Positions 21,001 to 26,402 of a stretch of DNA of 26,402 nucleotides are shown one piece after another. Positions within the stretch are counted from its first letter, which is position 1. Each line of letters starts with the position of its first letter. The DNA comes from a virus. Taxonomy: Duplodnaviria; Heunggongvirae; Uroviricota; Caudoviricetes. Position numbers: made by a program. The stretch lies in the IMG/VR virus record IMGVR_UViG_2541047828_000003, positions 1 through 26,402 of that record, one strand, 5' to 3'.

Positions 21001-24000
21001 AAGCCGAATGACTCCAGAGATGGAGAGACTGCAAAATGTCGCCTCTGCCCCAGAATTGAACTCACTAAGCATGGATGCCCTGAAGGCTGGATGGTCTCAA
21101 CTTTTCGGCTCTGACGCGTCTCAGGAAAAGATTCTTCAGGGAATGGGGGCGACATTAAGGCAGGATGAGAAGGGGAATACTATCGTTTCTCTTCCATCAG
21201 GTGATTATGCCCTGAACAAGCCGGGTTTATCACCGCAAGACCTGACTTCGTTTCTTGCTAATGCGTTGGCGTTTACACCAGCGGGCAGGGCTGGAACGGT
21301 GCTTGGTGCCATAGGAAAATCAGCAGCTACAGATTTAGCACTACAGGGAGCCACCAGCCTTGCTGGTGGAGAAGATATTGATCCGTTACAAACGGTAATT
21401 TCTGCTGGCATTGGTGGTATTGGTAAGGGGCTGGAAAATACAGCGAGTGCGGTTTCGAGGGCTGTTCGTGGTGATATGTCTCCTGAAGCAAAGGCTGCTG
21501 TCGACTTTGCATCGGAAAGAAATCTGCCGTTAATGACCAGTGACATGCTGAAAGATAAAACCTTTATGCAGAGTCAGGCTCAGACATTAGGCGAAAGAGT
21601 TCCTTTTTTTGGAACCGGTAAGAATCGACTGAATCAACAACAAGCACGAGAAAATTTAGTCAGAACATTTAGCGATGGTCTGGGTAGCATTTCTGATAAA
21701 CAGCTTTATGAATCTGCGACTAAAGGGCAACAAAAATTCATTGAGGCAGCAGGAAAGCGATATAACCGCATAATTGACGCTATGGGGGATACCCCTGTCG
21801 ATCTCTCAAACACGGTAAAAACTATCGACAATCAGATTGCCGTGTTAAGCCGCCCTGGCAAATCTCAGGATAGAGCCGCGGTAAAAGTCTTGCAGCAATT
21901 TAAAGACGATATCACCAGCGGACCAAATGACCTGCGTCTGGCGAGGGAAAACAGAACCGATCTTCGAAAGCGATTTATAGCGTCATCTGACACTGTTGAT
22001 AAAGATACGCTACAGAAAGCCAGCGATATTATCTACAAGGCATATACGGCGGATATGAAAAAAGCCGTAGCCAAAAATCTTGGAGCAGACGAAGCCATTA
22101 ATATGGCAAGGGTTGATCGCTCATGGTCTAAATTCAATGACATGATGGGAAGAACACGCGTTCAAAAGGCAATAGCCAGCGGCAAGTCCACGCCTGAGGA
22201 TGTAACAAAACTCGTTTTTAGCCAAAGCCCATCAGAACGTTCTCAGCTTTACAGGCTTCTGGATGACAATGGTAGGCAAAACGCACGAGCAGCCATAGTT
22301 CAGAATGCTGTAGATAAGGCGACTGATCCGTCTGGAAATATCAGTGTTGAGAAGTTTATTAATGCGTTACACCGGAACAGGAAGCAATCAGCAACTTTCT
22401 TTAAAGGCGTACATGGAAAGGAACTGGACGGCGTTATTAAATACCTCAACGATACAAGACACGCGGCAAAAGCGAACGTTCAAAACTTAAATGGTCAGCA
22501 ACTTTATGGATTATTAGTTGGTGGTGGCATCATAAACGCAGCAGTATTGGCGGGGATGCTAAAAACGGCTGCGTTTGTTGTTCCTGCTGCTGGTGCCGTA
22601 GGCGGAGCAGCGAAGGCATACGAAAGCCCTGTTATACGAAATGCCTTGTTACGTCTGGCAAATACGCCAAAAGGTAGCACAGCATATGACAGAGCGATCA
22701 GTACGGTCACACAATCGCTCACCAGAGTCGCACAGGCATCACAAAAAGAAGCTCAATAACTGGTTAGCCACGGATGGCTAATTTTTGTTCTTTGCTCTCA
22801 TCCACAGGTAAAGAAGGGCAAGAACAAGACAAAAAACAGAGAATAGATAACCTACCTCATATGGTGCGCCAAAAAAATTAGCTATTGATACGGGCAAAAA
22901 AGCTGAAGCGATCAAAATTGAAAGGCAAAAAATAAGCCCAGTAATATAGTTTATTAAATTCTTAAATGAGAAATGTTTTGCTTGATTTACGGTCTTAGCG
23001 AATGATCGCTTAACGACGGATAAAAGCAAATAGATGGCGACAGTTGCTAATGCCCCTTTCCACCAATCTGGATATAGTTTTGCGACAATCAGACCAAGGA
23101 AAACCATGATGACAGCCTGAGCATTCACACCAACCCTCCCTTTAGCGTTGTTTAGAATGGCAATCATCATATATCCAAGACATGGCATTTGGTACATAGC
23201 TTGGGTCGGGATTTCAAATCCGATCCCCGTTGATGGGGCCGTTACAGTACGCGCATATCCGCTTTATGTGAAACAGGAAGATTTTTCTGATATCACTGCC
23301 ACAGCAAAACACCAATTTCGGGACAAGTACGCGCGCGAGGGGTATCAGTTGCAAAAAATTTTGCAACTACGTCCGACCAGTATGCACACGATGGCGGGGG
23401 GATACCATAAAACTGTTCTCTACATGAGACAGAGTGGTGGTGATGTGTTGATTATCGGCGTATATGCGCACAGGACGCGCTATGACGATGTTTTATGCGG
23501 GTACACCAATCCCATGTATCTGGTGTGATAAATCGCGTTACATGACCTCTCATGTTGTGCTGGTGGTTATCACGACGTTCTGAATCTGGCCTTTGCCTGG
23601 TATTTTGCGACAAGTACGCGCGCGTAGCATCGAAATAATCGGATGGCGTATGCTGCTGGTAATATGAAGACCGATAGCATTAACCGTAAGGAGAAAGACT
23701 TCTCGATAACGGCAAGATCGCGGCAAGGGGGCTGAATTGCGAGGCGAGATTAAGCAACTGTCTTGAACGTAAAAATCATGGAGCAACATGATGGTACGAT
23801 TCATTCCATTCTTCGTTCTTTCTGAGCATTGCGTTCAGGCTTAGTCAAAATTAGTGTTGCGAGCGGACCTATTAGTAATTGTTAGTGCGATGCGCCTGTT
23901 ATGGATTGTTATGGTTGTGGCAGGCCTGATTAATATCCAGTATGACCACCAGCTATGAGAGGCCACCTCAGTGGTTCGCAGTTGCAGGTTTGCACTCAGG

Positions 24001-26402
24001 TTCGCAGGGTTTTGGCTACTTTCACGTGCGAACCTGCAGAATTGCAAAGGACAACTAAGTCCTCTGGCCAACTCCCGGTTTATGAGCGACACAGTCCGCC
24101 TGGCGCATCGTTTTCGTCGAGTGCGCCCATCAGCTTGTCCATGGACTATCCACCACTCGATATTAAAGCTAATCATTGGTTGCCAGCCCGCGAATCAAGT
24201 TTGTTCTGGATCCAAGCTTCAACCTCCTCAAGCGACCATCTAGCTGATCTACCAATTTTAACTGGCTGTGGAAACGTGCCCGTCTTAACCCATGAGTAGA
24301 TTGCCGTTTTCTTGAAGCCCGTTCTGAGCATAACTTCGCTTAATTTGATAAGGCGCATAGAGGCTCCTCTGCTTTAGATTAAGCATAGTGACAATCTGGC
24401 TTTGGCGGTATCCAAAAGCGAGGTATCCATGTTGGTATCCACCAAAACGCTGTTTACCAAAAAAGTTACCACCGGAACAGGACATTTTGAGCTGTAACTT
24501 AACACATAGCATATGGAGTTCACGCATAGACTTCACGCACAACGGCTCCGGCCAGTGAAGAATCACCCTGGCTGGCAATATAATGCCGATCACCATCAGA
24601 GGGGGATCCATGACACCACGAGAAATCGAGCTGCTGACCATTGCCAAGCTGGAGCATGACGGCCACCAGCTCAGCCCGGCAGAACTGCGGGAATTAAGGC
24701 GCCAGCTGGCAGAGGGCCCTGTAATAGCCAGGCGGTACCGCGAAATGATGACCAGCCCCGCATATCGCTGGAGCAAACCAGCGCCGCTCCGTGCGCGGTG
24801 AGCAGCACCTAACCAGCACTAGACAAGCCCTGTGCTGGTGGATGTCCCTCATAATTAGCGGTTTTTAAACAGCGTGTTGGTTCACGGCCTCTTTTTGTTG
24901 GTTCAAAAATGGGGTGTGTTGGTTCACTTTTTGCGAATAATTCTTTTAAAAACAATACTCTTTACAAATTGAACCAACTGAACCAACTGAACCAACACCT
25001 TTTTGCTTATCTATATAGTCTGAGAGGCAGAAATGATAAGGGACAGGAAAGCTGAAGATCTGGAGTCAAAAGGGCTATACCGGAGAGCTGCCGCACGATG
25101 GGCAGAAATCATGATGCTGGCAGATGGCGATAAAGAACGTGAACATGCAGCAAACAGACGCTCTGAATGTATCCGTAAGGCGGCACGCCAACCAGCAACT
25201 ACAGACAGATTCGGAGATTTAAGACAGGCAGTTAAGCGAACTCATTCGGCTCTTGGTATGGATGAGGAAGCGAGAGGGTACTTCAGGCGTTATCGCGATA
25301 AAGATTGCCAGAGACAGTAATGCTCTCTCTGTTTTGGCAAATTACCCCTCACTTTGAAGAGATCGGAGCTATAAAAATGGTGTTATCCGGCTTCCTCAAA
25401 TTGAGGTTTCCGAAAATATCAGCGGGTTAGCGATTAATCTGGCGAGTAATTAAACTGCGAAAATTTCGTAGGGGGTTACGAAAATTTCGTAGGTCTACTC
25501 ATGGTTTAGGCTTACTTTCCCGACATCCCCCAATGGGTGGGGGCGAAATAATCAATGGGTTAGGCTTACCTCCCCCATTTCCTGCATTGCAGGTTTTCGA
25601 AAGAATCAATGGGTTAGGTCATCGTGCAAATTTGCACTCTGACAGCCAACGCAATTTCTCGTTGGCGGAAATATCAGGTATTTACTGAACGAACGGTCTA
25701 CCCGCCTGTTCAACTACCAGTTGTACATGGCTGCTTTATGTGCAAATGGTGGTGAGAGAAAATTGTTTGGGGGTACTTTTGGGGGTATCTTCAAAGATGT
25801 AATTGGAAAATATCTTTATATATCAATGTATTTTTATTGTTTGTTTTGTTCCTATTATCGCACCATTTAAATCAATAAGTTACCCCATATTTAAATACAC
25901 CACGTTTCCTCCTGTGCCGTATTTGTGCCATTGTAACCCTGGCAATTCATCAAAATACTGTTCTGACATCAGGCAATGCAGGTGCAGACATTTAAGCCAA
26001 TTGCTGCCGCCATTCCTTGACGTGGTCAATCAGGGCGCGGAGCTTTGGTGCAATATTGCGACGCTGTGGGAAATACAGATAGAAGCCTGGAAATTGTGGA
26101 AGAAAGTCATCAAGCAGCGATACAAGCTTACCGCTTTCAATATATGGCCTGAAAGTTTCCTGAGTGGCAATTGTTATTCCTTCACCGACAAGAGCCAGCT
26201 GCAACATCAGACGCAGATCATTAGTCGTAATCTGCGGTTCAATCGCAAGGTCGAAAGTTCTCCCGTTTTCTTCAAATGGCCAGCGATAAGGCGCAACCTC
26301 CGGGGACTGACGCCAGCCGATACACTTATGGGTATTTCCCCCGGAGGCGAGAAAGCGCTCTCCACGCCCGGCCGCAAGGATCAGGACGACGGGGGCAGGC
26401 AT

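What the first reader, a model, noticed from the sequence alone, without database searches (positions are those of the whole stretch)
23198..24172. Decayed segment with a 16-bp direct repeat and only weak ORFs
gacaagtacgcgcgcg occurs at 23322-23337 and 23610-23625. ORFs in the region lack convincing starts, and one has a C-terminal segment loosely reminiscent of RelE/ParE toxins. The picture fits a deletion or recombination scar, for instance a lost tailspike or toxin-antitoxin locus.
Basis: inference. Interest (0 to 1): 0.35.

Follow-up and report, generated by a model that had tools for sequence, protein, structure and literature searches.

The report
Dead terminase gene stump in satellite
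The segment is a non-coding scar inside an E. coli phage satellite (an EcCIMP1-like island): the broken front end of a small-terminase gene cut by a truncated insertion sequence. Its 16-bp repeat is a short patch resembling the helper phage's own small-terminase gene, so it is mostly ordinary decay, with an untested chance that it is the satellite's packaging signal.

Summary
The repeat is real: 23322-23337 and 23609-23624, the second copy one base off the stated position. It extends to 23 nt (21/23) and is not chance.

The window is E. coli chromosome carrying an EcCIMP1-like phage-inducible chromosomal island (att cores at 8079 and 25850). Its helper is a P22-like phage, Kapi1. The finding lies in the gap that RefSeq leaves unannotated, between a membrane-protein gene and the second AlpA gene (alpA_1).

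The gap holds four things:
- A module, 23123-23633, shared by about 545 of 5,426 complete E. coli genomes. Its 123-aa ORF is an orphan that shows indels among copies and no third-codon-position bias.
- A frameshifted 5' stump of an ES18/Terminase_2-type small-terminase gene (about 23582-23757).
- The last 20 codons and right end of an IS110-family element (23754-23847, minus strand), which cuts that stump.
- An orphan 330 bp next to alpA_1.

Sister islands carry Abi, ImmA/IrrE or other genes beyond the module, with at least five different breakpoints inside the terminase stump.

Both repeat copies give their best match in the whole Kapi1 genome inside its terS gene (codons FRDKYA).

RelE/ParE, tailspike and structured-RNA readings found no support. 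"Scar" is right; what was lost is a terminase gene. A role as a pac-site mimic is possible but untested.

The parts
8079..8088 (+). Left att core (TCCTATTATC) of the EcCIMP1-like island
   Evidence: The core occurs exactly twice in the window. It is the same core that was reported for EcCIMP1 (PMC11773190).
22778..23167 (-). Membrane-protein gene at the position that sieA holds in P22. Its body (22778-23122) differs between islands. Its first ~15 codons lie inside the conserved module.
   Evidence: PGAP CDS WP_000560497.1. DNA similarity to sister islands stops at 22777-22779 and resumes at 23123-23125. It has no phage homologue.
23123..23633 (.). Conserved, unannotated module of the island family. 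The part common to all sampled copies is about 23214-23633.
   Evidence: It is present at 95-100% identity in 545 of 5,426 complete E. coli genomes. Boundaries were mapped against L006, L007, L009, L012, L013 and L020.
23157..23528 (+). Orphan 123-aa ORF, probably not a gene
   Evidence: There is no family match. A search of 1.84 billion representatives found no distant homologue. Nine copies show four independent 1-nt indels, and substitutions fall 6/9/7 by codon position. The AlphaFold model has pLDDT 43.
23315..23337 (+). Direct repeat, copy 1 (core 23322-23337). It resembles helper Kapi1/Sf6 terS codons AKHEDFRDKYA.
   Evidence: locate it. Its best local alignment in the whole Kapi1 genome is in terS, and none of 1000 shuffles reached that score. 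BLASTP aligns AKHQ-FRDKYAR with AKHEDFRDKYAK.
23322..23374 (+). 53-nt segment present here but absent in L009-type islands. It includes a hairpin (AGTTGCAAAA-AA-TTTTGCAACT, 23347-23368) and is followed by the degenerate core copy at 23375-23394.
   Evidence: Alignment A3, inverted repeat I20. L009 carries a single hybrid copy, as expected from a deletion between the two direct repeats.
23602..23624 (+). Direct repeat, copy 2 (core 23609-23624). It is invariant in the nine copies compared and lies 9 nt inside the shortest module boundary.
23582..23757 (+). Frameshifted 5' stump (about codons 10-65) of an ES18/Terminase_2-type small-terminase gene. The similarity is robust from 23621. There are 1-nt deletions near 23698/9 and 23730, and stops at 23625 and 23636.
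   Evidence: blastn hits phage terS genes. tblastn of the stitched 55 aa hit 42 phage records; every listed hit lies in a small-terminase gene or at that gene's position, with E down to 1e-8. Three colinear frames match a terS profile. Local-alignment z-scores are 13-30. An in-frame version exists in sister islands (P0045, which JGI names 'phage terminase small subunit').
23754..23847 (-). IS110-family stump: the last 20 codons (LNAMLRKNEEWNESYHHVAP*) plus the ~22-nt right end. The rest of the element is deleted.
   Evidence: It is 94-96% identical to the 3' end of IS110-family copies in more than 2,000 E. coli genomes. The reference copy has DEDD_Tnp_IS110 and Transposase_20 domains and the same C-terminus.
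23848..24172 (.). Orphan 330 bp between the IS stump and alpA_1. It is found only together with alpA_1.
   Evidence: It occurs only in this configuration, in about 150 genomes. The 111-aa ORF matches nothing but itself. Fold z-scores are -0.65 and -1.24. There is no Rfam match.
24173..24358 (-). alpA_1, the second AlpA/Xis-like gene (equivalent to EcCIMP1_023)
   Evidence: Pfam Phage_AlpA, E 1.9e-13. It is 43% identical to Kapi1 Xis. Its role is described in PMC11773190.
25850..25859 (+). Right att core of the island

Best explanation
The segment is a decayed remnant of the packaging end of an EcCIMP1-like phage-inducible chromosomal island. It no longer codes for anything. An ancestral island carried a small-terminase (terS) gene downstream of its P22-like ejection-protein genes. 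The right-hand part of that gene has been replaced many times by different cargo. In the lineage of this window an IS110-family element inserted at about codon 65 of terS. A later deletion removed most of the IS and joined its 3' stump to DNA next to a second AlpA/Xis gene. The remaining ~510-bp module is inherited as non-coding DNA. The 16-bp (23-bp) direct repeat is not a target duplication of a missing element. It is two copies of one short terS-derived patch (reading F-R/C-D-K-Y-A-R) that closely resembles the helper phage Kapi1/Sf6 terS. Most likely this is a by-product of recombination among terS sequences. Shown: the anatomy, the homologies, the lack of coding constraint, and membership of the island family. 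Inferred: the order of events, and that the repeat arose by terS recombination.
For: The window is 97.7% identical to EcCIMP1 of strain MP1 over 23203-25116. The EcCIMP1 att core flanks the island. Gene content matches the published map, including the second, reverse-oriented alpA_1. The terS stump is supported, and the IS110 stump. Right-hand ends of the module in different genomes fall at 23633, 23669, 23689, 23738 and 23757, all inside the stump. Beyond those ends lie Abi, ImmA/IrrE plus partner, or two small genes. Coding constraint is absent: four independent single-base indels in nine copies, substitutions 6/9/7 by codon position, different frameshifts of the stump in the window, MP1 and UPEC129, and no homologues outside this module. 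The repeat matches helper terS, which is the best hit in the Kapi1 genome for each copy, with 0/1000 shuffles reaching the score.
Against: No island with an intact terS at this position was found, so the ancestral state is inferred. The stitched stump does not reach any Pfam hit. The left 400 bp of the module (23214-23580) has no recognisable origin. Exact identity of the 16-bp core, next to flanks that barely align, is not what a simple old duplication predicts. It could instead mean selection on the core. The window's extra G at 23396 restores the frame of the 123-aa ORF after the 53-nt segment, which could be read as selection for that ORF.
Confidence: 0.7

Rival explanations
1. The module is a working DNA site. 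The repeated helper-terS-like core, perhaps together with the terS stump, is the pac signal. Through it the helper's Sf6-type terminase recognises and packages the island, which has no terminase gene of its own.
For: Both copies, and a third copy after perC in EcCIMP1 itself, match Kapi1 terS better than any other part of the Kapi1 genome. The P22 pac site lies inside its terS gene (PMC9611059). Some PICIs are packaged because they carry the helper's pac or cos sequence, and EcCICFT073 has two cos sites (PMC6092414). EcCIMP1 is transferred specifically by Kapi1, which does not do generalised transduction. It has no identifiable terminase gene, and its packaging mechanism is stated to be unknown (PMC11773190). 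None of the five sampled right-hand breakpoints removes core copy 2: the shortest ends 9 nt after it. Copy 2 is invariant in nine copies.
Against: The similarity is short (17/18 nt, about 27/33 with gaps). Zero changes in 23 nt is not significantly fewer than the roughly 6% variable sites of the module predict. Copy 1 varies (GACAAG/GACCAG). The mapped position of the Sf6 pac site could not be checked, because Leavitt et al. 2013 is not held. The patch encodes residues at the edge of the DNA-binding domain rather than its centre (own recollection). EcCIMP1 transduction is inefficient.
Confidence: 0.2
2. The 123-aa ORF (or its 105-aa form) is a real small protein, possibly a RelE/ParE-like toxin that has lost its antitoxin.
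For: An ORF of 105-127 aa is called in several assemblies. The window's +1 G restores the frame after the 53-nt segment. The model predicts a helix followed by three strands, which is loosely RelE-like.
Against: No Pfam, NCBIfam, PHROG or PADLOC hit at permissive thresholds. No PDB sequence match. No distant homologue among 1.84 billion representatives or in 185,579 species genomes. The most populated cluster among the hits is a frameshifted form (P0007, 155 member sequences). There is no third-position bias. The start overlaps the divergent membrane gene's start by 11 nt. pLDDT is 43. No antitoxin partner is present.
Confidence: 0.05
3. The module encodes a structured non-coding RNA or a leader that regulates the variable cargo downstream.
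For: It always lies upstream of the variable slot, and cargo genes on the + strand start 300-400 bp after it. It contains a perfect 10-bp-stem hairpin.
Against: No Rfam match, even at E<=5. Fold z-scores of -0.65 to -1.24 are ordinary. No promoter-like or terminator-like site lies inside 23198-24172. In this window the downstream genes are on the opposite strand. The hairpin-containing 53 nt are dispensable in L009-type islands.
Confidence: 0.04

Closest known systems
EcCIMP1, a phage-inducible chromosomal island of E. coli MP1 with helper vB_EcoP_Kapi1 (Pick, Stadel & Raivio 2025, PMC11773190)
   Same: It has the same att core, the same integration region (proA/thrW to yagU side), and the same gene order (int, alpA, antirepressor, primase, DUF2824, ejection-protein genes, reverse alpA_1, perC). 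It is 97.7% identical across the whole finding. The finding corresponds to the gap between EcCIMP1_022 and EcCIMP1_023, where the authors inserted their kan marker.
   Different: This island has a different membrane-protein gene and different DNA after perC. MP1 starts the module at 23203 and has an extra 11-nt deletion in the stump and a third repeat copy after perC. The paper reports no identifiable terminase gene; the terS stump and IS stump are not mentioned.
Small terminase genes of ES18-like phages (Pfam Terminase_2, PF03592)
   Same: Codons about 10-65 (the helix-turn-helix DNA-binding part) are recognisable at DNA and protein level, in the right order and orientation.
   Different: The stump is broken by at least two frameshifts and two stops, is cut at codon ~65, has no oligomerisation or TerL-binding part and no adjacent terL, and falls below any Pfam hit.
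Sf6/Kapi1-type small terminase gene, and pac sites that lie within terS
   Same: The repeat core matches Kapi1 terS nt ~160-189 at 17/18, in the same reading phase (F-R-D-K-Y-A).
   Different: Only a 20-45 nt patch is similar. It is not known whether this patch belongs to the Sf6-type pac site.
IS110-family insertion sequences
   Same: 94 bp are 94-96% identical to the 3' end, with an identical C-terminal peptide.
   Different: Only the last 20 codons and the right end remain. The DEDD and Transposase_20 domains and the 5' non-coding end are gone.
cos- or pac-carrying satellites (SaPIbov5, EcCICFT073)
   Same: The island lacks its own terminase and carries short helper-like packaging-gene sequence in more than one copy. 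EcCICFT073 has two functional cos sites.
   Different: The function here is untested, and the helper is a headful (pac) phage rather than a cos phage.

Membership tests
RelE/ParE toxin | Match to a RelE/ParE family profile | tested here: not met
   There were no Pfam or NCBIfam families at E<=10 for the 123-aa ORF. PADLOC and PHROGs gave none. No PDB sequence match better than E 0.4, and those matches were to unrelated enzymes.
RelE/ParE toxin | Adjacent antitoxin gene in an operon | tested here: not met
   There is no upstream ORF. The ORF start overlaps the divergent membrane gene's start.
RelE/ParE toxin | RelE-like fold | tested here: inconclusive
   The single-sequence AlphaFold model has mean pLDDT 43.3, too low for a fold search.
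Small terminase (Terminase_2, ES18 type) | Sequence similarity to the N-terminal DNA-binding part of terS | tested here: met
   blastn to phage terS. tblastn hit 42 phage records; every listed hit lies in a small-terminase gene or at that gene's position, E down to 1e-8. Colinear profile matches occur in three frames. z-scores are 13-30.
Small terminase (Terminase_2, ES18 type) | Profile match above the curated threshold | tested here: not met
   The stitched 57-71 aa gave no Pfam hit at E<=10, whereas the phage TerS control scored 55 bits.
Small terminase (Terminase_2, ES18 type) | Intact ORF with oligomerisation core and TerL-binding end, next to terL | tested here: not met
   It has frameshifts and stops and is cut at codon ~65 by the IS stump. 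No terL similarity exists in the window.
IS110-family insertion sequence | DEDD_Tnp_IS110 and Transposase_20 transposase | tested here: not met
   Only the last 20 codons are present. The full reference copy has both domains.
IS110-family insertion sequence | Nucleotide identity to an element end | tested here: met
   94-96% identity over 89-95 nt to the 3' end of annotated IS110-family copies.
EcCIMP1-like PICI | att core TCCTATTATC flanking an island with int, alpA, primase, perC and a second reverse alpA | tested here: met
   The core occurs at 8079 and 25850 only. Gene order agrees. Near-identity to MP1.
EcCIMP1-like PICI | Helper-dependent excision and transfer | not testable with these tools
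   This was shown experimentally for EcCIMP1 only.
Phage pac site carried by a satellite | Sequence shared with the helper's packaging recognition region | tested here: inconclusive
   The patch matches helper terS. Whether it overlaps the mapped Sf6-type pac site could not be checked.
Phage pac site carried by a satellite | Terminase-dependent packaging initiation at the site | not testable with these tools
   This needs transduction or virion-end mapping.
P22-like tailspike remnant | Similarity to a tailspike or its head-binding domain | tested here: not met
   tblastn of the Kapi1 tailspike, arc, ant and neighbouring genes against the whole window gave no hit at E<0.01.

The most novel reading that the evidence does not exclude
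The conserved ~420-bp module is the long-sought packaging signal of EcCIMP1-like islands. These satellites keep only stumps of terS genes because the pac sites of headful phages lie inside terS. The exactly repeated FRDKYA-coding core is the site that the helper's Sf6-type small terminase binds. On this reading the ES18-type stump could be a second pac for another helper class, and the sharp right-hand boundary just after core copy 2 reflects selection to keep it.
Probability: 0.2. Interest if true: 0.55.

Novelty: new member of a known kind. Interest (0 to 1): 0.3.

Why it matters
As a scar it matters little. It shows that an unannotated kilobase present in about 3% of complete E. coli genomes (its left half in about 10%) is a dead small-terminase gene plus an IS110 fragment, not a hidden gene or RNA.

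It adds one concrete point to the published description of EcCIMP1, which reported no terminase-related sequence and an unknown packaging mechanism. The island family once had its own terS, and it still carries two or three copies of a patch resembling the helper's terS.

That turns the packaging question into a simple experiment: delete the patches, or move the module to a plasmid. The segment also marks the left edge of a cargo slot that holds Abi and ImmA/IrrE-type genes in sister islands.

Tried and rejected
- **RelE/ParE toxin.** No profile, PDB or homologue support. The structure model is unusable.
- **Lost tailspike or immI region.** No similarity to Kapi1 tailspike, arc or ant. Megablast against 50,697 phage records found nothing.
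- **Structured RNA.** Rfam was negative at gathering threshold and at E<=5. Fold z-scores are ordinary.
- **Tandem repeats.** Only a trivial 10-nt array at 23897-23918.
- **Target-site duplication of a 287-bp insert between the two repeat copies.** I considered joining the DNA upstream of copy 1 to the DNA downstream of copy 2 into one terS. The region left of copy 2 has no significant DNA similarity to ES18-type terS (z about 0), and contiguous alignment across copy 2 is at least as good, so this is not supported.
- **The 105-aa 'intact' ORF of metagenome contigs as the ancestral gene.** Rejected. It arises from a deletion between two direct repeats of an L006-like sequence.
- **Search for diverged copies in other species.** Only one chance-level hit.
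- **Search for an intact close terS.** Only a 36-aa in-frame stump.
- **111-aa ORF coupled to alpA_1.** No homologues.
- **Membrane protein as a SieA relative.** No phage hit.
- **Literature on the exact Sf6 and ES18 pac positions.** Not available in the library.
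Full report
**Observation.** The 16-mer GACAAGTACGCGCGCG occurs exactly twice in the window, at 23322-23337 and 23609-23624. 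None of 100 dinucleotide-preserving shuffles gave a match. In register the repeat extends to 23 nt with 21 identities (23315-23337 and 23602-23624). No sigma-70-like promoter or intrinsic terminator is predicted inside 23198-24172.

**Where the window comes from.** The 1.9 kb around the finding is 100% identical to several E. coli chromosomes. RefSeq annotates nothing between a membrane 'hypothetical protein' (22778-23167, minus strand) and an AlpA-family gene (24173-24358, minus strand).

The neighbourhood reads as follows:
- an integrase, AlpA and an AntA/B antirepressor;
- the IsrK and C4 RNAs;
- a TOPRIM/DUF927 primase;
- DUF2824, P22 gp7-like, gp20-like and gp16-like ejection-protein genes;
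- the gap studied here, the reverse AlpA and PerC;
- a truncated LysR gene and paoD.

This is the organisation of EcCIMP1, a phage-inducible chromosomal island of E. coli MP1 that is mobilised by the P22-like phage Kapi1 (PMC11773190). The MP1 chromosome is 97.7% identical to the window over 23203-25116. The att core reported for EcCIMP1, TCCTATTATC, occurs exactly twice in the window, at 8079 and 25850, bracketing the island.

Against Kapi1 proteins, the window's integrase (50%), DUF2824 (82%), gp7-like (57%) and gp20-like (35%) products and the reverse AlpA (43% to Kapi1 Xis) all match. Kapi1 tailspike, arc, ant and terL do not. The reverse AlpA is therefore the alpA_1 (EcCIMP1_023) of the paper. 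The finding is the gap between EcCIMP1_022 and _023, where the authors placed their kan marker.

**Anatomy of the gap.** Comparison with sister islands divides it as follows.

(a) *Conserved module, 23123-23633.* It is found at 95-100% identity in 545 of 5,426 complete E. coli genomes. To its left, the body of the membrane-protein gene (22778-23122) is replaced in other islands. Only that gene's first ~15 codons lie in the module.

(b) *Variable DNA to the right, up to 24874.* There the conserved perC region begins. Sister islands carry an Abi-family gene plus a 147-aa gene, an ImmA/IrrE peptidase plus a partner, or two small reverse genes.

(c) *Breakpoints.* The right-hand end of the shared sequence differs between genomes: 23633, 23669, 23689, 23738 or 23757.

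**The terminase stump.** A sensitive DNA search of 23100-23760 against 50,697 phage records hit only the 5' ends of small-terminase genes. Three successive reading frames between 23635 and 23757 match, in order, positions 24-47, 44-55 and 57-65 of a profile built from five such TerS proteins. A 55-residue peptide stitched from these frames hit 42 phage records by tblastn. Every listed hit lies in a small-terminase gene or at that gene's position near its 5' end (ES18, SPN3UB, phiEt88, CobraSix and others), with E down to 1e-8.

Local DNA alignment scores of 23590-23760 against terS 5' ends lie 13-30 standard deviations above shuffles. Those of 23200-23590 and 23843-24172 are at chance. The similarity is robust from 23621 and can be traced weakly back to about 23582.

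In UPEC129-type islands the same stretch is in frame (P0045, 36 aa, MAYAAGNMKTDSINRKAKELLDNGKIAARVAE..., which JGI names 'phage terminase small subunit'). The window has single-base deletions near 23698/9 and 23730, and MP1 has a further 11-nt deletion. The stitched peptide does not reach any Pfam hit. This is therefore a pseudogene stump of an ES18/Terminase_2-type terS that is decaying independently in different islands.

**The IS stump.** Window 23751-23847 is 94-96% identical to sequence annotated as the 3' end of IS110-family transposase genes in more than 2,000 E. coli genomes. On the minus strand it reads LNAMLRKNEEWNESYHHVAP-stop followed by ~22 nt. This is identical to the C-terminus of a reference copy that has DEDD_Tnp_IS110 and Transposase_20 domains. 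The element end abuts terS codon ~65 at about 23754-23760. Similarity to the IS stops at about 23840-23847. So the IS inserted into terS and was later truncated by a deletion.

**Beyond the IS stump.** The 330 bp beyond it (23848-24172) occur only in this configuration with alpA_1, in about 150 genomes. The 111-aa ORF there, whose ATG overlaps the alpA_1 stop, has no homologue other than itself among 5.8 billion proteins. Neither strand folds better than shuffles.

**The ORF in the module.** The 123-aa ORF (23157-23528) has no Pfam, NCBIfam, PHROG, PADLOC or PDB match. Its only relatives, in 5.8 billion proteins and in an exhaustive search of 1.84 billion representatives, are near-identical copies from the same module. 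A scan of 185,579 species genomes found none.

These copies have different lengths because of frameshifts. Among nine aligned DNA copies there are single-base indels at four places (23223, 23353, 23396, 23508), and substitutions fall 6, 9 and 7 on codon positions 1, 2 and 3.

The 105-aa 'intact' version in metagenome contigs lacks 53 nt. It carries a single hybrid of the flanking repeats (GACCAGTACGCG|CACGATGG). This is the product expected from a deletion between the direct repeats at 23322 and 23375 of an L006-like sequence. A single-sequence AlphaFold model has pLDDT 43. I conclude that this ORF is not a maintained gene and that the RelE/ParE impression has no support.

**What the repeat is.** Both copies read F-(R/C)-D-K-Y-A-R in the same codon phase. 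The helper phage's small terminase (Kapi1, identical in this part to Sf6 gp1) contains AKHEDFRDKYAK. Copy 1 reads AKHQ-FRDKYAR.

At DNA level both copies match Kapi1 18875-18892 at 17/18. With gaps, copy 1 matches over 33 nt, and a third copy, found after perC in MP1 (L020 4520-4554), matches over 44 nt. For each of the three copies the best local alignment anywhere in the 39-kb Kapi1 genome, on either strand, is in terS on the forward strand. None of 1000 shuffles reached the observed score. In the window itself the two copies are the two best matches to 27-mers from that part of Kapi1 terS.

Copy 2 lies at the left edge of the ES18-type stump, so the stump looks chimeric: an Sf6-type patch followed by ES18-type sequence. 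The repeat is thus two copies (three in MP1) of one short terS-derived patch. It is not the footprint of a lost element.

**Most likely explanation.** The segment is the decayed packaging end of a satellite. An ancestral island-encoded terS, a gene that PICIs sometimes carry in this position (PMC6092414), was eroded from the right by repeated cargo replacement. In this lineage it was also hit by an IS110 insertion and a subsequent deletion that brought in or retained alpA_1. The remainder drifts as non-coding DNA. I give this 0.7.

The anatomy, the homologies and the lack of coding constraint are shown. The order of events is inferred, and no island with an intact terS here was found.

**The main rival.** The module, or at least the repeated core, may still work as a pac signal for the helper's terminase.

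In favour:
- The P22 pac site lies inside terS.
- Some PICIs are packaged because they carry the helper's pac or cos sequence, and EcCICFT073 has two working cos sites.
- EcCIMP1 is transferred specifically by Kapi1, has no identifiable terminase gene, and its packaging mechanism is described as unknown.
- The core is exactly conserved between copies whose flanks barely align.
- None of the five sampled breakpoints removes copy 2.
- From memory, not checkable here, Leavitt et al. 2013 placed the Sf6 pac site within the part of gene 1 that encodes the DNA-binding domain. The patch lies at the end of that part.

Against:
- The match is short.
- Invariance of 23 nt is not statistically remarkable given about 6% variable sites.
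- Copy 1 varies.
- Transfer of EcCIMP1 is inefficient.

I give this 0.2. A real small protein (0.05) and a regulatory RNA (0.04) are unlikely for the reasons given above.

**Verdict.** The feature is an ordinary pseudogene-plus-IS remnant inside a recently described satellite family. The one point of wider interest is the helper-terS-like repeat, which offers a direct test of how these islands are packaged.

Noticed in passing
window 11933-12160: IsrK (69 bits) and C4 antisense RNA (81 bits) lie side by side in the island's early region, next to an ash-family pseudogene and an icd-like gene. This is the P1/P7/P4-type immunity RNA arrangement inside a PICI.
   Followed up: no
window 22778-23167 (-); L006, L007, L009, L012, L013: The membrane-protein gene after the gp16-like injection gene sits where sieA sits in P22. 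Its body is replaced by unrelated sequence in sister islands (132-204 aa), while its first ~15 codons stay constant. EcCIMP1 gives superinfection immunity against Kapi1 by an unknown mechanism (PMC11773190), so this variable gene is a candidate. It has no phage homologue.
   Followed up: partly
window 23634-24874 and the equivalent slot in L006, L007, L009, L012, L013: The slot between the module and the perC region behaves as a cargo or defence hotspot. It holds Abi-family genes, an ImmA/IrrE peptidase plus partner, or two small reverse genes in different islands. Here it holds alpA_1.
   Followed up: partly
L020 (E. coli MP1) 4520-4554: EcCIMP1 itself has a third copy of the repeat (23/23 to copy 1, with a palindromic TA(CG)5TA) just after perC. 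This window has no copy at that position.
   Followed up: partly
window 24583-24801 (+): A 63-72 aa ORF (MTPREIELLTIAKLEHDGHQLSPAELRELRRQL...) upstream of perC is 69% identical at DNA level to an annotated gene that follows perC in MP1. RefSeq here annotates a 45-aa ORF on the opposite strand instead, so the annotation may be on the wrong strand.
   Followed up: no
L014 (Leptolyngbya phage Lbo-JY16) 1118-1198: The closest DNA match to the E. coli terS stump (80% over 80 nt) is in the terS of phages recorded as infecting a cyanobacterium. Their TerS is otherwise like those of enterobacterial ES18-type phages, which is an odd host assignment or a very wide transfer.
   Followed up: no
L004 (E. 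coli Ecol_AZ153) 3001-3238 and more than 2,000 other genomes: A differently truncated stump of the same IS110-family element sits next to kpsF at the edge of the group 2 capsule region in a large share of E. coli genomes.
   Followed up: no
window 23392-23398: The length of a G-run varies between islands. The window's extra G exactly compensates the 53-nt segment and keeps the 123-aa ORF open. The most populated cluster among the protein hits (P0007, 155 member sequences) lacks it.
   Followed up: partly
window 25992-26402 (-): A truncated LysR-family gene (the yagP position) abuts the island's right att. It is annotated as a pseudogene in identical genomes.
   Followed up: no
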